A stretch of DNA of 49,323 nt. Source: Thermoplasmata archaeon. Lineage in GTDB: Archaea; Thermoplasmatota; Thermoplasmata; Lutacidiplasmatales; UBA184. The translations under genes were made by a program, and so were the position numbers. How positions within the stretch are numbered: the first letter of the stretch is position 1; every line of letters begins with the position of its first letter. Positions 11,219 to 20,548 of the stretch are shown here, one piece after another. The notes beneath the pieces were generated by a model that saw only the letters and a list, made by a program, of their open reading frames with translations, was not told the DNA's origin and made no database searches. The stretch lies in assembly GCA_021791335.1 (NCBI GenBank), contig JAJYWS010000023.1:1-49323 (forward strand). Direction: 5' to 3'.

Positions 11219-11528
11219 GGTCCGGTCGCCGTAGTAAGCCCCTTTCGGTTTCAGGCAGCATTCGACTCCGCGCTCTTCTCGGCGGTCAGGGAACCGCTTC
11301 CACCCGCCTTCTCGGGCTTGCTCCCGGGGAGTCGGCCGTTTCACCATATCCTTGAGGAGCCTCCGATCCGGGATCTTCATCGTTCCTCACGGCTGTGTCG
11401 TTTCTGCTCCGTTGCTCGGACTCTCGCCCGTCGGGCTCCCGCCCGACCCCGTGGTTCCTGGAGAGGGGACTTTCCTCAGCGTCGGCCCCGTGGGACCTCC
11501 ACCGTCAGCTGCCCTCGGCCTCCGGACC
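11219..11528 (-). ncRNA. rnpB: Archaeal RNase P RNA
   Basis: Minus strand carries GAGGAAAGTCCCCT (CR-I), GCAGAAAC, TGAAACGGCC, GAGCAAG and 3' AACCGAAAGGGGCTTACT; P1 GGTCCGG/CCGGACC and P2 GGCAGC/GCTGCC can pair. Confidence 0.95.
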
Positions 11529-15721: not shown

Positions 15722-15822
15722 CGGGTGGCGATCGGCGGCCGCGCCGAAGGGAGCCGCCGAGGGCGCGGGGTAAGACTTAATAGGGTATCGGGTTGCCGCG
15801 TCCCACCATTTCGGGGGATACC

Positions 15823-17937
15823 GTGGGGATTTCGACGACTCAACTGGAGCTCTTGATTTTTTTGGCCGCGGCCCTGGCCCTGGTCTACGCCGCGCTGCAG
15901 ACGGTCCTCGTACTCCGGCAGGACGACGGCGACGAGAAGATGCGGGGCATCGCGCAGGCGATCCGGGAGGGGGCGGTGGCCTTCCTCCGCCGCGAGTATA
16001 CCGTCGTCTTTGCCGTCGCTGCCGTTCTGGCGGTCGTGATCGCGCTGGCCTTCGGGATCACGGGGGTCGGCACCCCCTACGCGGTGGGCTTCGTCTTCGG
16101 GGCCGCCGGGAGCGCCCTGGCGGGCGCGGTCGGCATGCTGGTCAGCGTCCGGGCGAACGTCCGGACGGCCGCCAAGGCCCGGGGCGGCGACCTGGCCGGA
16201 ACGATGCGGTTTGCCTTCCAAGGCGGGACCGTCACCGGCCTCAGCGTGGCCGGCCTCGCCCTTCTCGAGCTCATCGGATTCTACGTGCTGTTCCAAGGCA
16301 ATGTGCTGAACATGATCGGCCTCCTGTTCGGCGCCTCGCTCATGAGCCTTTTCGCCCGGGTGGGCGGGGGCATCTACACCAAGGGCGCGGATGTCGGAAC
16401 CGATCTCATCGGCAAGGTGGAAACCGGGATCCCGGAGGACGACCCCCGCAACCCCGGCGTGATTGCCGACAATGTGGGCGACAATGTCGGGGACTGCGCG
16501 GGCATGGCCGCCGACCTGTTCGAGACCTACGTGGTCACCGCCGTCAGCGCGATGCTGCTGGCCTACCTCATCTCGAGCGTTACCACGCTGTTCCCGAACG
16601 CGATCCTCTTCCCGCTCGTCATCTGCGGCTGGGCGATCGTCGCGACCCTGATCGGGATCGTGTTCGTTCGGATGCGGCCGGGCGGTTCCATCATGGGCGC
16701 CCTGTACCAGGGGCTCGCCGCCACCACGATCGTCGGCGTCGTGGGACTGTATGTGTTGAACTACTATCTGATGAACGGCAATTCGGGCATCTTCATCGCC
16801 GCGGTCGTCGGGCTTGTGGTGATGGTTCTGATCGTGCTCGCGACCGACTACTACACGAACGCGAGATTCTCGCCCACCCGGCACATCGCCGAGTCGGCCC
16901 AGGCGGGTGCGGGAACCACGGTGATCGCGGGGCTCGGCGTCGGGCTCGAAGCCTCCTGGATCAAGGGGCTCTCGATCGTCGGGGGCGTGCTCATCGCCTA
17001 CACCGCGGTCGGCTGGAACGGCTGGACGACCGCTCCGGACCCCTCCCTCGGACTCTACGGCATCGGCATCGCGGCGGCGAGCATGCTCGCGGTCACGGGC
17101 ATGATCATCTCCATCGATGCCTTCGGGCCGATTACCGACAACGCCGGCGGGATCGCCGAGATGGCGGGACTCCCCAAGGAGGCCCGGGACGTCACCGACC
17201 CGCTCGATGCGGTGGGCAACACGACCAAGGCGGTCACGAAGGGCTACGCGGTCGGATCCGCGGTGCTGGCGGCATTGGCCCTGTTCGCCGCCTACACCTT
17301 CGCGGCCGCTCGGGCCTGGAAGGGGACCGGCCTCCTCAACTGGAACCTCTTCACCAGCCAACTCACGCTCAACCAGCCGCTGGTCGTCGCCGGGTTGATC
17401 GTCGGGGCGCTCCTGCCGTTCTTCTTCACCTCCTTCCTCATGAACGCGGTCGGCGTCGCAGCTCAGGCGATCGTTTTCGAGGTGCGCCGCCAGTTCAAGG
17501 AGATCGGAGGGATTCTGGAGGGCACCGGCAAGCCGGACTACGGCCGCTGCGTCGACATCGTCACCCTGACCGCGATCCAGCAGCTCGCGGTTCCCGCCCT
17601 GATCGCGGTGGCCACGCCGCTCGCGGTCGGGTTCCTCCTCGGACCGGTCGCTCTGGCCGCACTCTTGCTCGGCGTCATCCTCTCCGGCTTCCCCCTGGCC
17701 ATCCTGATGACCACGGGCGGCGCCGCTTGGGACAACGGCAAAAAGTACATCGAGCTGGGTCACTTCGGCGGCAAGCACTCGGAGGCCCACAAGGCGGCCG
17801 TGGTGGGCGACACCGTTGGGGACGCGACCAAGGACACTGCGGGGCCGGCGATCAACCCTCTCATCAAGGTCGTGAACACGATCTCGATCCTGTTCATCGC
17901 CCTGATCGTCGCGCACTCCCTGATTCCCATCCCCTGA
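15823..17937 (+). CDS. hppA: Membrane-bound H+-translocating pyrophosphatase, K+-independent signature
   Basis: GGGIYTKGADVG, PEDDPRNP, DNVGDNVGD, DAVGNTTKA (Lys form), GGAWDN, GDTVGD; start GTG 15823 or TTG 15793. Confidence 0.95.
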   Translation: MGISTTQLELLIFLAAALALVYAALQTVLVLRQDDGDEKMRGIAQAIREGAVAFLRREYTVVFAVAAVLAVVIALAFGITGVGTPYAVGFVFGAAGSALAGAVGMLVSVRANVRTAAKARGGDLAGTMRFAFQGGTVTGLSVAGLALLELIGFYVLFQGNVLNMIGLLFGASLMSLFARVGGGIYTKGADVGTDLIGKVETGIPEDDPRNPGVIADNVGDNVGDCAGMAADLFETYVVTAVSAMLLAYLISSVTTLFPNAILFPLVICGWAIVATLIGIVFVRMRPGGSIMGALYQGLAATTIVGVVGLYVLNYYLMNGNSGIFIAAVVGLVVMVLIVLATDYYTNARFSPTRHIAESAQAGAGTTVIAGLGVGLEASWIKGLSIVGGVLIAYTAVGWNGWTTAPDPSLGLYGIGIAAASMLAVTGMIISIDAFGPITDNAGGIAEMAGLPKEARDVTDPLDAVGNTTKAVTKGYAVGSAVLAALALFAAYTFAAARAWKGTGLLNWNLFTSQLTLNQPLVVAGLIVGALLPFFFTSFLMNAVGVAAQAIVFEVRRQFKEIGGILEGTGKPDYGRCVDIVTLTAIQQLAVPALIAVATPLAVGFLLGPVALAALLLGVILSGFPLAILMTTGGAAWDNGKKYIELGHFGGKHSEAHKAAVVGDTVGDATKDTAGPAINPLIKVVNTISILFIALIVAHSLIPIP

Positions 17938-18002
17938 GGTGAGGATCGACCGCAATCTATTTGGGGCCCGGGATCCCTGTCTTCACCGGGAGGGGATAGT
18001 CG

Positions 18003-18044
18003 ATGTGCGACACCTGCGGTTGCAAGTCCAAGAAGAAGCCGTAA
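18003..18044 (+). CDS. Putative 13-aa Cys-rich micropeptide MCDTCGCKSKKKP
   Basis: ATG TGC GAC ACC TGC GGT TGC AAG TCC AAG AAG AAG CCG TAA; GGAGG 9 nt upstream; TATA-like AATCTATTT at ~17954-17962; codon usage typical of the genome. Confidence 0.55.
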   Translation: MCDTCGCKSKKKP

Positions 18045-18179
18045 GACGGGATCACCGTGCTTCTCCGAACGTAACCCCTTTGGTACCCCCTTCTGGGTCC
18101 AACCCCTTCGGGTGAGGCTGCCCGACTCCACCATGGGCTAGCTCGACACCCCTAAATGCGATTGCCGCATGGCCGGCGC

Positions 18180-18389
18180 ATGCCACCCAACTGTCCGGTC
18201 TGTGGCCACGAAGTGGCCGCGGAGGAGCTCCATGAACACCTCCTCACACGCCACAAGAACTCAGTCACACCCGAAATCGAGGAGATGCGGGCGAGGACCG
18301 CCGGCCAACTGAACTGTCCGATCTGCCACCAGAAAATCGGTACCGCCGAAGAGGTGAGTCAGCACATCCAGCAGCGCCACCGCCTGTAG
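18180..18389 (+). CDS. Small protein with two C2H2 zinc fingers
   Basis: CPVC-x-HLLTRH and CPIC-x-HIQQRH. Confidence 0.75.
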   Translation: MPPNCPVCGHEVAAEELHEHLLTRHKNSVTPEIEEMRARTAGQLNCPICHQKIGTAEEVSQHIQQRHRL

Positions 18390-18399
18390 CGGACGCGCT

Positions 18400-18759
18400 T
18401 CAGGCGTAGTGGCTCAGGCTGGACCGCTCCCGGCGGCTGGGGTCCGAGCTTCCCTGGGACTCTTCCCGGCGCCGTTCCCGCTCGCACTCCTCCTCGGTGA
18501 CCCAGTCAAATTGGATCTCCTCGGGGTGGTCGTGGGCCACGTAGGCGCCCGCCTCGAAGGCGCTCGCCAGGAGCTCCTCGAAGTTCTCCGCTTCGCTCCC
18601 CTCCAGTCGGCCGGCGAGCCGCCAGAACCAGTCCGGGGCTTTCCCCGCCGACTGCAGGTACTCCGTGATCAGGTCGTGGACGCTCGCGCGTCGGTCGCTC
18701 AGGTGAACGTGGAGGTGCTTCGAGGGATCGGGGGCTTCCGGAGATGCAGGCGGTGCCAT
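18400..18759 (-). CDS. Hypothetical acidic protein
   Basis: Protein-like 119-aa frame from ATG 18759; TTAAG element upstream on the minus strand. Confidence 0.6.
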   Translation of the reverse strand: MAPPASPEAPDPSKHLHVHLSDRRASVHDLITEYLQSAGKAPDWFWRLAGRLEGSEAENFEELLASAFEAGAYVAHDHPEEIQFDWVTEEECERERRREESQGSSDPSRRERSSLSHYA

Positions 18760-18845
18760 CGAGCCATGAAGGCGTCCTCCGCACTTAACGGTTCGGCCGA
18801 ACCGGGGCCGATAGCTTTTGAGCCGGGGGGATGTAGGGGAATCCG

Positions 18846-19265
18846 ATGTACCGGCCGACCGCCTCTCCCCCCTCGCCGAGCGTTCCGCCTCCTCCCCCGC
18901 CCCCCTCCGACCCATCATCGACCGACAGCATGGGCGCCAGCACGTCGAGTCCCCGATACGTCTACCTGGTCACCCGGCTTCGGACCCGAAAGATCACGAT
19001 GGAGGAAGCGACCGAACTTTTCGGTCTCATGAACGCCCTGGTTCGGGACGCCCAGGCCCGCGCGGCGCCGGCGGTTTCGAGCACTCCCACGGTTCCTGCT
19101 CTTCCGGGCTCCCAACCCCCCCCGGCCGCGCCGTCCCTCTGGAACGATGACAATCTCGGGTTCGCCCTGCTCTTCTTGGGCGCCGGCGCCGGCCTGTTGG
19201 CCGCGGGCGCGAAGAAGATCCGGGCCGACCAGGGTCCCGGCCGCGATTCCCCGCCGTCGCCCTAA
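18846..19265 (+). CDS. Hypothetical protein with C-terminal TM helix, upstream of mre11
   Basis: Helical core RYVYLVTRLRTRKITMEEATELF plus a hydrophobic segment; alternative start 18930. Confidence 0.65.
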   Translation: MYRPTASPPSPSVPPPPPPPSDPSSTDSMGASTSSPRYVYLVTRLRTRKITMEEATELFGLMNALVRDAQARAAPAVSSTPTVPALPGSQPPPAAPSLWNDDNLGFALLFLGAGAGLLAAGAKKIRADQGPGRDSPPSP

Positions 19266-19273
19266 GGTCCGTG

Positions 19274-20548
19274 ATGGCCCGGGACCGATTCCGATTTGCC
19301 CATCTGGCCGACGCCCATATCGGCGCCTGGGCCCGAGAACCGGAGGTACGCGCCGAACTCCGGGCCACGGTCCTGCGGGCGCTCGAGACGGTGGAGGAGC
19401 GGGAGTGCGACTTCCTGCTGATCTCGGGGGACCTCTTTCACGTCCCAGTCCCGGATCCGGGCGAAGCGGAGCCGCTGGCCCGGGCCTTGAAACGGCTCAC
19501 CGACTCCGGACGGCGGATCTACGCCATCTACGGTTCCCATGACTATGTGGCCCACCGCATTAGCTGGCTGGATGTCCTCGCGGCGTCCGGGGTCTTCATC
19601 AAGGTGGCCCCGGAAGAGGTCCGGGCCGAAGGGCAACGCTGGACGCTGCCCTACGTGACCGACCCACCGACCGGCGTGCGGATTGCCGGGGTCAGCGGGC
19701 GGTCCCACGGCTACGACCGGAGCCACTTCTTGGACATGGACGCGACCGAGTTTCTCTCCGGCGACGCGTTCCGGATCTTCCAGTTTCATGCGGCCATCGA
19801 CGATTACCTGCCGGAGGGGCTGCGGGAGCACCTCCACGGGATCCGGGCCGCCGACCTTCCGGCGGGGTGCGACTACTATGCGGGGGGCCACGTCCACCAG
19901 ACCTACCAAGGGGAGGGTCCCGGAGGAGGACTCCTCATCAATCCCGGGGCGGTCTTCGGGACCAGCCGGACCGATATCGAGGCCATCGTGCACCACCGGA
20001 CGGTGGCCGGACTGTCGCTCGTGGAGGTGGACGGCCGGAAGATCCGCCAGGAGATGGTCTCGGTGGTCCGGGCCGACCGGCTCCACATCATCGACGTGGA
20101 GGCCGACCGGCGGACCGCCGCCGAGGTGGCGCGGGAGGTCTCCGAAGGGATCGCGAGGGCCCAGGACCCGACCGGACTCTACTTTCCCCGGATCCGCGGG
20201 AAGCTGGACGAGTCGGACCTAATGTCGGCCGGCCTCCCGGCCCTGGTCCGGGAGCTGGGGGCAGGGCCGGGGGCGGTCGTCCTCGACCTCTCCGAGATGG
20301 ACGCCCCCGCCAACGGGCCCAGCCTGCCCACCAGCGAGACCGAACTGGAGCGCAGCGTCTTCGGTCGGCTGCTGGCCGAACATCCTCCGGACGGCACCGA
20401 GTTGTCGACCCCGGAGGCGCTCGAGACATTGCGTCAGCTCCTTCGGGAGCTCGGGCTTCCGCCGTCGGAAGGCGAAAGCCGTCGGGACTACGAGGGGGCC
20501 CGGATCCGGGAGGCGATCCGCCTCCTCCGGCTGCCGGCCGAGGAGTGA
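19274..20548 (+). CDS. mre11: DNA double-strand break repair nuclease Mre11
   Basis: FAHLADAHIG, ISGDLFH, GSHD, FHAAI, YYAGGHVH, NPG phosphoesterase motifs. Confidence 0.92.
   Translation: MARDRFRFAHLADAHIGAWAREPEVRAELRATVLRALETVEERECDFLLISGDLFHVPVPDPGEAEPLARALKRLTDSGRRIYAIYGSHDYVAHRISWLDVLAASGVFIKVAPEEVRAEGQRWTLPYVTDPPTGVRIAGVSGRSHGYDRSHFLDMDATEFLSGDAFRIFQFHAAIDDYLPEGLREHLHGIRAADLPAGCDYYAGGHVHQTYQGEGPGGGLLINPGAVFGTSRTDIEAIVHHRTVAGLSLVEVDGRKIRQEMVSVVRADRLHIIDVEADRRTAAEVAREVSEGIARAQDPTGLYFPRIRGKLDESDLMSAGLPALVRELGAGPGAVVLDLSEMDAPANGPSLPTSETELERSVFGRLLAEHPPDGTELSTPEALETLRQLLRELGLPPSEGESRRDYEGARIREAIRLLRLPAEE

What the first reader, a model, noticed from the sequence alone, without database searches (positions are those of the whole stretch)
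17954..18044. 13-aa micropeptide MCDTCGCKSKKKP carrying the HypB-type CxxCGC metal-binding motif
Seen: TATA-like AATCTATTT, GGAGG Shine-Dalgarno at 9-nt spacing, ATG, three Cys, a Lys-rich tail and TAA; it is too short for the ORF track. Known: E. coli HypB begins MCTTCGC, an N-terminal high-affinity Ni/Zn site that uses the free amine. Inference: a stand-alone minimal metal-chelating or sensing peptide (or a leader peptide or HypB remnant), next to a small C2H2 zinc-finger gene. It would be among the smallest archaeal proteins.
Basis: partly seen in the sequence, partly recalled or inferred. Interest (0 to 1): 0.75.

Follow-up and report, generated by a model that had tools for sequence, protein, structure and literature searches.

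The report
Conserved 13-codon cysteine-rich metal-peptide gene
A 13-amino-acid gene whose first seven residues match the nickel-binding tip of the bacterial protein HypB is conserved, with its own promoter, across a family of archaea from mine waters, so it is probably one of the smallest free-standing metal-binding proteins known.

Summary
Window 18003-18044 (+) reads ATG..TAA = MCDTCGCKSKKKP, with GGAGG 9 nt upstream and an A/T box at 17954-17962.

It is far more than chance. When 501 nt around it were compared with relatives, only the micro-ORF matched. Verified 13-17-codon versions occur in 39 of 101 genomes of the genus, in 4 genera of the family, and in 83 of 84 metagenome matches. Variation is at wobble positions only. 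Starts are ATG, GTG or TTG, and all three stop codons are used. The A/T box sits near -40 and the Shine-Dalgarno near -10. Flanks are unalignable. Two bacterial copies have a sigma-70 promoter and an intrinsic terminator.

The heptad MCDTCGC is also the N-terminus of at least 105 bacterial HypB genes. There it forms the published picomolar Ni(II) site (N-terminal amine plus Cys2, Cys5, Cys7).

It is not a hypB remnant, and no hydrogenase, HypA, HypD, NicO, LarC or CODH genes were detected in this genome. The C2H2 zinc-finger neighbour is incidental. The usual upstream neighbour is the H+-pyrophosphatase gene.

Best reading: an autonomous gene for a metal-chelating peptide. Translation and metal binding are inferred, not shown.

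The parts
17954..17962 (+). A/T-rich TATA-like box (AATCTATTT), at -49..-41 from the start codon
   Evidence: Read directly. In 56 unique micro-ORF contexts the A/T fraction rises to 0.46-0.93 at -45..-36 (0.93 at -39), against about 0.3 background. In this window the box lies about 4 nt further upstream than the consensus position. Its function as a promoter is inferred; no transcription start data exist.
17989..17993 (+). Shine-Dalgarno-like GGAGG, 9 nt before the ATG
   Evidence: Read directly. There is a G-rich peak (0.43-0.75 G) at -13..-7 across 56 contexts.
18003..18044 (+). Micro-ORF of 13 codons plus TAA: MCDTCGCKSKKKP
   Evidence: - Sequence read.
- It is the only part of a 501-nt query that matches congeners.
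- Verified in 39 of 101 genomes of the genus.
- In the 41 thirteen-codon ORFs, mean pairwise identity is 86% in the ORF and 29-32% in the flanks.
- Variation in the head is at third codon positions only. Starts in the 56 contexts are ATG 48, GTG 7, TTG 1, and stops are TAG 33, TAA 12, TGA 11.
- In 84 metagenome matches to a pattern that holds no start codon, 83 have ATG or GTG directly upstream.
15793..17937 (+). Membrane H+-pyrophosphatase gene, the usual upstream neighbour on the same strand (context, not shown to be a functional partner)
   Evidence: PF03030 scores 791.8 bits. A PPase gene lies upstream on the same strand in 34 of 48 genome contexts and in 63 of 84 metagenome loci. In the genome contexts the gap is 48-235 nt, with one case of 631 nt.
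18156..18389 (+). 77-aa C2H2 zinc-finger gene, an incidental downstream neighbour
   Evidence: zf-Di19 scores 31.1 bits, above the 27.5 cut-off. It is found next to the micro-ORF only here, in G052 (57% identity) and in 2 of 84 metagenome loci.

Best explanation
This is an autonomous, translated micro-gene. Transcription starts from its own TATA-type promoter about 40 nt upstream, and translation starts at a Shine-Dalgarno-led ATG (GTG or TTG in some relatives). The product is MCDTCGCKSKKKP.

Inferred steps: methionine aminopeptidase removes Met1, because Cys is a small second residue. The free alpha-amine of Cys2 and the thiolates of Cys2, Cys5 and Cys7 then chelate one soft or borderline metal ion, as in the high-affinity N-terminal Ni(II) site of E. 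coli HypB. The variable Lys-rich tail supplies solubility and charge balance.

The genome shows no hydrogenase-maturation or other nickel-enzyme genes, and the organism lives in mine drainage and tailings. The likeliest role is therefore a cytoplasmic metal buffer or mini-chaperone (Ni, Zn, Cu, Cd, Co), not a part of hydrogenase assembly.

Shown here: gene-like conservation, promoter and SD signals, and identity of the heptad with HypB heads. Inferred: translation, Met removal, metal binding and physiological role.
For: 1. Island of conservation. Only the 41-47 nt at window 18001-18049 match in 6 of 24 congeners at 88-95% identity. A seventh congener, G007, matches 17986-18026 at 85%. The flanks do not match.

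2. Coding signature.
- There are 56 unique contexts and 28 distinct peptides of 13-20 aa.
- Length differences are always whole codons.
- In the head, codon positions 1 and 2 vary by 0.02 or less, apart from the start codon, while position 3 varies by 0.05-0.54.
- Starts are ATG 48, GTG 7, TTG 1. Stops are TAG 33, TAA 12, TGA 11.
- The tail, which the search patterns did not constrain, is 84% identical, against 29-32% for the flanks.
- Codons 3-4 were left free, and 31 of 38 matches read Asp-Thr.
- A metagenome pattern without a start codon found 84 loci. In 83 of them ATG (78) or GTG (5) lies directly upstream and the ORF is 12-17 aa.

3. Expression signals. There is an A/T peak at -45..-36 and a G peak at -13..-7. 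Two bacterial loci (MltA and TatD neighbours) carry TTGCCG-17-TACAAT or TAGAAT with an upstream TG, GGAGG, a 17-aa MCDTCGCK[D/G]KKKPKPKK ORF, and an intrinsic terminator whose stem differs between the two loci.

4. Distribution.
- 39 of 101 genomes of the genus.
- 25 of 60 family genomes in 4 genera, and 0 of 341 genomes in 34 other families of the class.
- Some genomes hold two copies (G056, G066, G178, G467).

5. Link to metal binding.
- MCDTCGC heads 105 of 120 loci that carry a HypB P-loop in the same ORF. All 4 sampled hit TIGR00073 at 223-251 bits, cut-off 121.2.
- The CxxCGC site binds Ni(II) with picomolar affinity through the N-terminal amine and Cys2, Cys5 and Cys7, and short peptide maquettes of the motif bind Ni and Zn (PMC12284835 and PMC7055735, passages read).
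- One metagenome protein has a signal-peptide-like N-terminus ending AQA directly before CDTCGCK, so cleavage there would again leave the motif at a free N-terminus. It also has a weak YHS match (14.6 bits, below the cut-off).

6. Habitat. Near-identical DNA (1-4 differences over the 621-701 nt covered) was laid from 4 runs of 4 studies labelled mine drainage, mine tailings or 'metagenome'.
Against: - There are no RNA, ribosome-profiling or peptide data. No RNA run holds the locus.
- Metal binding is inferred from seven residues shared with HypB. Homology and convergence cannot be told apart at that length.
- G000 (93% complete) shows no HypA, HypD, NicO, LarC or CODH. Its only NiFe-hydrogenase-family hit is the N-terminal 70 positions of a NuoD-like ORF. 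A nickel client is therefore missing.
- No metal transporter or metal regulator recurs beside the gene. The recurring neighbours are the H+-PPase, HxlR and HTH_10 regulators, Kelch and PQQ propellers, and Endo_dU.
- About 60% of the genus genomes sampled lack it under the two patterns used. Three high-quality genomes have nothing at the PPase locus.
- The last Pro codon is CCG in 35 of 36 cases and never CCC, although three large genes of the window use CCC 39 times and CCG 55 times. This hints at an additional constraint at the nucleotide level or at termination.
Confidence: 0.5

Rival explanations
1. It is a thiol or redox peptide rather than a metal buffer. The gene-encoded tri-thiol would act as a sacrificial or iron-binding redox partner, like a rubredoxin or a low-molecular-weight thiol, in oxidative or electrophile stress.
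For: In 4 loci an HxlR-family regulator gene lies immediately upstream on the same strand (L028, L030, L179, L254). That members of this family include thiol-based stress sensors is recalled, not tested here. In other families of the class the same MC[D/E]TCGC head opens a 50-aa, 12-Cys protein. That protein sits between a flavodiiron protein gene and desulfoferrodoxin, rubrerythrin or ferritin genes in 5 of 5 loci.
Against: The peptide has only three Cys and no fourth ligand. The exact Asp-Thr and Gly spacers are the ones used in HypB nickel sites. Most copies (34 of 48 and 63 of 84) are not next to any redox gene.
Confidence: 0.15
2. It is a cis-acting regulatory ORF, where the act of translating it matters. 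It would work as a cysteine-sensing attenuator or as a Lys-Lys-Lys-Pro-stop arrest peptide controlling a neighbouring gene.
For: Polycysteine short ORFs act as cysteine-responsive attenuators in mycobacteria (bioRxiv 10.1101/834739, abstract read). Most copies end in Pro-stop, and the Pro codon is almost always CCG. That C-terminal Pro-stop slows termination is recalled, not tested here.
Against: No downstream gene on the same strand is conserved. The usual downstream gene is convergent (orf172), and the bacterial copies end in their own terminator. Asp3, Thr4 and Gly6 are conserved as amino acids with free wobble positions, not just the Cys codons. Tails ending KKKK, KKKE, KEK or KKGE also exist.
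Confidence: 0.1
3. It is an accessory peptide of the membrane H+-pyrophosphatase. Examples would be a regulator that binds the pump, or a Lys-rich tail that binds pyrophosphate or membrane.
For: The hppA gene lies directly upstream on the same strand in 34 of 48 genome contexts and 63 of 84 metagenome loci. This holds even where the downstream genes differ.
Against: The whole neighbourhood (PPase, orf172, orf139, Mre11-like) is syntenic in this family, so adjacency may simply be inherited. Canonical copies occur in at least 10 other contexts, including bacteria, each with its own promoter. PPase-bearing relatives without the ORF exist. The peptide has no hydrophobic segment.
Confidence: 0.1
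4. It is a decayed hypB stump, a chance ORF, or a non-coding conserved element.
For: The head equals a HypB N-terminus. The ORF is too short for any gene finder.
Against: - tblastn with four HypB proteins finds only the 7-8-residue head in window 16500-20500 (E 0.21). One further low-scoring alignment runs past the stop (E 0.002).
- The same queries find nothing at E 0.01 or below in the 48 genome loci and 84 metagenome loci.
- The stop is kept at codon 13-20 in genomes of about 60-73% G+C.
- Start codons interchange among ATG, GTG and TTG, and variation is at wobble positions only.
- The reversed-pattern control gives 0 matches in 401 genomes.
- The only strong cobW-family hit in 101 genus genomes is UreG-like.
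Confidence: 0.03

Closest known systems
N-terminal high-affinity metal site of GTPase-type HypB (CxxCGC motif; E. coli HypB residues 2-7)
   Same: The motif sits in the same place, directly after the initiator Met. The heptad MCDTCGC is identical to that of at least 105 bacterial HypB ORFs. In HypB this site binds Ni(II) in a square-planar complex through the N-terminal amine and three thiolates. Seven-residue-scale peptide maquettes retain Ni and Zn binding (PMC12284835 and PMC7055735, passages read).
   Different: There is no linker and no G-domain. The ORF stops after 13 codons and no G-domain remnant is present. No hyp genes or hydrogenase were detected in the genome. A Lys-rich tail replaces the HypB extension. 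The gene has its own promoter.
Metallothioneins and other small Cys-rich metal buffers
   Same: It is small, 23% Cys, has no aromatic or His residues, and comes from organisms of metal-rich habitats.
   Different: The shortest metallothioneins I recall are about 25 residues and form multi-metal thiolate clusters. This peptide has three Cys and would bind one ion per peptide, using the N-terminal amine. No sequence relation was tested or is expected.
Archaeal cysteine-motif small proteins (C(P)XCG zinc-finger micro-proteins of Haloferax; CxxC-x17-CxxC proteins of Methanosarcina)
   Same: They are archaeal, very small, and carry a CxxCG-type motif with predicted metal binding (PMC11241148, listing and abstract; PMC12704099, passages).
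   Different: Those proteins have two CxxC pairs (four Cys) that fold into a zinc ribbon, and the set described is of proteins under 70 aa (PMC11241148 abstract). This peptide has 13 aa, three Cys and no second motif.
Polycysteine leader ORFs of mycobacteria (cysteine-responsive attenuators)
   Same: They are very short, unannotated, Cys-rich ORFs (bioRxiv 10.1101/834739, abstract).
   Different: Those are leaderless, have Cys tracts, and sit upstream of cysteine-metabolism operons whose ribosome-binding site they control. Here an SD-led ORF has spaced Cys with conserved spacer residues and no conserved downstream gene.

Membership tests
HypB (TIGR00073; G3E P-loop GTPase) | GTPase G-domain with P-loop and CH...C metal site | tested here: not met
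   The ORF ends after 13 codons. tblastn with 4 HypB proteins finds no G-domain remnant in window 16500-20500, in the 48 genome loci or in the 84 metagenome loci.
HypB (TIGR00073; G3E P-loop GTPase) | CxxCGC motif directly after Met1 (subgroups 2 and 3 of HypB) | tested here: met
   MCDTCGC is at residues 1-7. The same heptad heads 105 of 120 loci that have a HypB P-loop in the same ORF. All 4 sampled score as hypB. The HypB subgroups are described in PMC13202556 (passage).
HypB (TIGR00073; G3E P-loop GTPase) | Occurs with hyp genes and a [NiFe]-hydrogenase | tested here: not met
   G000 (93% complete) has no HypA match and no HypD match. PF00374 matches only positions 1-70, at 32.7 bits, in a 408-aa NuoD-like frame. 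PF02492 reaches only 25 bits.
Metallothionein-like metal buffer | Low mass, high Cys content, no aromatic residues | tested here: met
   The peptide has 3 Cys in 13 residues and no Phe, Tyr, Trp or His. The same holds for all 28 peptide variants.
Metallothionein-like metal buffer | Binds metal ions through thiolates, and is induced by or protective against metals | not testable with these tools
   This needs titration of a synthetic peptide and expression data. No RNA run is listed for the locus.
Cysteine-responsive leader ORF (attenuator) | Lies upstream of, and on the same transcript as, a regulated operon, and only the Cys codons matter | tested here: not met
   The downstream gene is convergent or variable. 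The bacterial copies are followed by a terminator. Asp3, Thr4 and Gly6 are conserved with free wobble positions.
C(P)XCG zinc-finger micro-proteins | At least two C(P)XCG or CxxC pairs giving four Cys ligands | tested here: not met
   The peptide has one CxxCG and three Cys in all.
RiPP or cofactor precursor peptide | Leader plus core peptide, with modifying enzymes encoded alongside | tested here: not met
   No recurring enzyme gene lies beside the ORF in the contexts scanned with Pfam. A 13-aa product leaves no room for a leader.

The most novel reading that the evidence does not exclude
A ribosomally made, 12-residue metallopeptide (CDTCGC plus a Lys tail) is a free-standing cellular metal ligand. 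That would make it the smallest gene-encoded metalloprotein. It would be used by acid-habitat Thermoplasmata-type archaea and some bacteria as a cytoplasmic Ni, Zn or Cu buffer or hand-off chaperone. It would be the same module that HypB, a 50-aa archaeal oxidative-stress protein and a protein with a signal-peptide-like N-terminus and a weak YHS match carry at their mature N-termini.
Probability: 0.4. Interest if true: 0.85.

Novelty: new variant of a known kind. Interest (0 to 1): 0.74.

Why it matters
Gene finders cannot see a 13-codon gene, so this family is absent from protein databases even though it is conserved in dozens of species.

If the peptide binds metal as the HypB head does, several things follow:
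- It shows that a seven-residue chelating site can be a complete gene product.
- It gives bioinorganic chemists a natural minimal Ni/Zn site to study with a cheap synthetic peptide.
- It adds a new kind of player to metal homeostasis in metal-rich, acidic habitats.
- It provides a clean test case of how small a functional, independently transcribed gene can be in archaea and bacteria.

Tried and rejected
- Rfam. Nothing reached gathering score at the locus; the window's only hit is archaeal RNase P at 11223-11524. The permissive scan of 17800-18300 gave only a DUF3085 RNA match at E 3.1. No riboswitch was found in the bacterial or other loci L262, L265, L220 and L283, only a tRNA in L283.
- No tRNA genes were found in the window.
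- The sigma-70 promoter and terminator scan of the window found none, as expected for an archaeon.
- RNA evidence: no RNA holder is listed among the 24 runs.
- Reads laid from 4 DNA runs. The strain-level contigs differ from the window at only 1-4 places over the 621-701 nt covered, none of them inside the ORF. That is too few to test selection. Contigs of other community members match only the PPase end and the micro-ORF.
The look-up of the 50-aa, 51-aa and 77-aa proteins could not be made because the shared database is switched off.
- Structure and complex prediction were not attempted, because the peptide is under the 30-residue minimum.
- Earlier findings of this scan held nothing relevant.
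- HypB-remnant reading: rejected.
- Zinc-finger partner: rejected.
- Leader-peptide and RiPP readings: rejected for lack of a conserved downstream or enzyme gene.
- Nickel genes sought in G000 without a convincing match: PF02492, PF00374, PF01155, PF01924, PF03824, PF01969, PF03063.
- Literature. 'MCDTCGC' occurs in 0 papers. 'CXXCGC' occurs in 7 papers: 5 are about HypB or nickel chaperones, 1 cites the motif only in passing (PMC5744191, passage read), and 1 was seen only in the listing and not read (PMC11027154). The searches on archaeal small Cys-rich proteins and on metallothionein with Thermoplasmata found no description of such a gene.

Full report
**What is in the window**

One search shows ATG at 18003, followed by TGC GAC ACC TGC GGT TGC AAG TCC AAG AAG AAG CCG and TAA ending at 18044. 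This reads MCDTCGCKSKKKP. GGAGG lies at 17989-17993, 9 nt before the ATG. AATCTATTT lies at 17954-17962.

The gene upstream (15793-17937, +) is a membrane H+-pyrophosphatase (PF03030, 791.8 bits). The gene downstream (18156-18389, +) is a 77-aa C2H2 finger (zf-Di19, 31.1 bits). The window is archaeal: it holds an archaeal RNase P RNA at 11223-11524.

**Is it more than chance?**

A 501-nt query (17900-18400) was compared by BLAST with 41 relatives. It matched 7 of 24 congeners. In six of them the match covered only the micro-ORF (query 102-150, 88-95% identity). The seventh, G007, matched query 87-127 at 85%. The flanks did not match.

The MCxxCGC-coding pattern gave 38 matches in 34 of 101 genomes of the genus, against 9 for the reversed control. 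Codons 3-4 were left free in that pattern, yet 31 of 38 matches read Asp-Thr. Of the 29 loci fetched, 25 were ORFs of 13-17 codons with a Lys-rich tail.

The closest relative, G052 (PPase 97% identical), carries the ORF with a GTG start. A GTG/TTG-start pattern then found 8 more genomes, and all 8 hold micro-ORFs. Two unfetched matches were checked and also proved to be micro-ORFs. That gives 39 of 101 genomes of the genus.

In a sample of 401 genomes of the class, the stricter pattern hit 30 genomes and the control hit 0. Micro-ORFs were found in 25 of 60 genomes of the family, spread over 4 genera. None were found in 341 genomes of 34 other families. G019, G087 and G109 are flagged unpublished. 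G019 contributes one positive locus and the other two are negatives. No claim depends on them.

**Coding signature**

Across 56 unique contexts there are 28 distinct peptides of 13-20 aa:
- Starts are ATG 48, GTG 7, TTG 1.
- Stops are TAG 33, TAA 12, TGA 11.
- Among the 41 thirteen-codon ORFs, mean pairwise identity is 86% in the ORF and 84% in the tail that no pattern constrained. It is 29-32% in the 42 nt on either side.
- In the head, only third codon positions vary: Thr ACC 23, ACG 16; Gly GGC 19, GGG 16, GGT 6; Cys7 TGC 28, TGT 13.

The patterns fixed positions 1-2 of the Cys and Gly codons, so those positions are not independent evidence. The independent evidence is the BLAST island, the free codons 3-4, the tail, the stop position and the start codon. 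A metagenome scan used a pattern that holds no start codon (CDTCGCKxKKK). It returned 84 loci, and 83 of them have ATG (78) or GTG (5) directly upstream and ORFs of 12-17 aa.

**Expression signals**

Anchored on the start codon, the A/T fraction rises from about 0.3 to 0.46-0.93 at -45..-36 (0.93 at -39). The G fraction rises to 0.43-0.75 at -13..-7. This is the layout of an archaeal TATA box plus a short SD-bearing leader. In this window the box lies about 4 nt further upstream than the consensus.

Two metagenome loci with bacterial neighbours (MltA, TatD) show a complete bacterial transcription unit. It consists of TTGCCG-17-TACAAT or TAGAAT with an upstream TG, GGAGG, a 17-aa MCDTCGCK[D/G]KKKPKPKK ORF, and an intrinsic terminator whose stem sequence differs between the two loci. 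No RNA data exist for the window, so transcription and translation remain inferred.

**What the peptide resembles**

A scan of one genome per prokaryote species for the MCDTCGC-coding pattern stopped at its 120-locus limit. The results were:
- 105 loci carry a HypB-type P-loop in the same ORF.
- 4 more are His-rich N-termini cut by the end of the locus.
- 7 are archaeal micro-ORFs.
- 4 are other ORFs.

All 4 sampled long ORFs score as hypB (TIGR00073, 223-251 bits, cut-off 121.2). In E. coli HypB the CxxCGC motif binds Ni(II) with picomolar or sub-picomolar affinity in a square-planar site. The ligands are the N-terminal amine and Cys2, Cys5 and Cys7. Short peptide maquettes of the motif bind Ni and Zn (PMC12284835 and PMC7055735, passages). 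PMC13202556 (passage) lists the HypB N-terminal classes.

The same head also opens other small proteins:
- A 50-aa, 12-Cys protein lies between flavodiiron and desulfoferrodoxin, rubrerythrin or ferritin genes in 5 of 5 loci of other families.
- A 51-aa protein (MCLTCGC...) lies next to MerB in one of two loci.
- In one metagenome protein, a signal-peptide-like N-terminus ends AQA directly before CDTCGCK. Cleavage there would again leave the Cys at a free N-terminus. This protein also has a weak YHS match (14.6 bits, below the cut-off).

**What it is not**

It is not a hypB remnant. Four HypB queries find only the 7-8-residue head in window 16500-20500, and nothing at E 0.01 or below in 48 + 84 micro-ORF loci.

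It is not tied to hydrogenase. G000 (93% complete) has no HypA or HypD match, and only a NuoD-like partial PF00374 match. The only strong cobW-family hit in 101 genus genomes is UreG-like. NicO, LarC and CODH/HCP were also not found.

It is not a partner of the zinc-finger gene.

It is not a classic leader peptide. The usual downstream gene is convergent, the contexts vary, and the bacterial copies end in a terminator.

**Context**

The hppA gene lies upstream on the same strand in 34 of 48 genome contexts and in 63 of 84 metagenome loci. The whole neighbourhood is syntenic in this family, however. Canonical copies also sit behind HxlR regulators (4 loci), HTH_10 regulators (3), Kelch proteins (3), PQQ propellers (3), Endo_dU (2), PAN and DUF488. 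One copy lies before a small multidrug-export gene in a low-G+C archaeon. Some genomes have two copies.

Near-identical DNA occurs in runs labelled mine drainage, mine tailings, sediment and soil. Four such runs from four studies were laid, and their contigs carry the stretch with 1-4 differences over the 621-701 nt covered.

**Verdict**

The finding is real and unusual. It is a conserved, independently expressed 13-codon gene whose product is, residue for residue, the HypB high-affinity metal site plus a Lys tail, in organisms with no detectable hydrogenase machinery.

The most likely mechanism is metal chelation by the amine of Cys2 and three thiolates after Met removal, serving metal buffering or hand-off in metal-rich habitats (confidence about 0.5). 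Redox, cis-regulatory and PPase-accessory roles remain open.

One oddity is unexplained. The terminal Pro codon is CCG in 35 of 36 cases and never CCC.

No description of such a stand-alone gene was found in the library searches made. Supplements were not consulted.

Noticed in passing
L167:1501-1650 (+), and L168, L169, L170, L188: A 50-aa protein with 12 Cys starts MC[D/E]TCGC and ends ...PYCCGxPMKR[VI][KR]. It has no Pfam match. In 5 of 5 loci of two other families of the class it lies directly after a flavodiiron protein gene (ODP plus flavodoxin) and before desulfoferrodoxin, rubrerythrin or ferritin genes. It looks like an undescribed rubredoxin-like partner in an oxygen-detoxification operon.
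   Followed up: partly
L018:477-629 (+) and L032:1501-1653 (+): A 51-aa protein family in the same genus begins MCLTCGCKMPNDRHKPGD and has no Pfam match. In L018 an alkylmercury lyase (MerB) gene follows about 200 nt downstream. In L032 it does not.
   Followed up: partly
L221:372-836 (-): A metagenome protein has a signal-peptide-like N-terminus ending AQA directly before CDTCGCKDKKK, followed by a Lys/Asp-rich linker and a weak YHS-domain match (14.6 bits, below the cut-off). Cleavage at AQA would expose the motif at a mature N-terminus, possibly outside the cell.
   Followed up: partly
L262:1135-1320 (-) and L265:1138-1320 (-): Bacterial-type copies of the micro-gene (17 aa, tail KKKPKPKK) lie between MltA and TatD genes. 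Each has a sigma-70-like promoter and an intrinsic terminator, giving a monocistronic unit of roughly 170 nt.
   Followed up: yes
window 18039-18041 and the same codon in relatives: The last sense codon (Pro13) is CCG in 35 cases, CCT in 1 and CCC in 0 among the 41 thirteen-codon ORFs. Other synonymous sites are well mixed, and three large genes of the window use CCC 39 times and CCG 55 times. This may be a constraint at the nucleotide level or at termination.
   Followed up: partly
window 18400-18918 (-) and 18846-19265 (+): Two conserved ORFs without a convincing Pfam match lie convergent and downstream of the micro-ORF, followed by an Mre11-like phosphoesterase gene (19271-20548). The block is syntenic in 22-24 of 48 genome contexts and 50-64 of 84 metagenome loci.
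   Followed up: no
window 11223-11524 (-): Archaeal RNase P RNA, 180.4 bits, full length.
   Followed up: no
window 17998-18050, runs X9 and X11: In mine-drainage and 'metagenome' runs, contigs of other community members, some with far higher word depth, match only the micro-ORF and then diverge on both sides. The gene is therefore shared by several co-occurring organisms in different contexts.
   Followed up: partly
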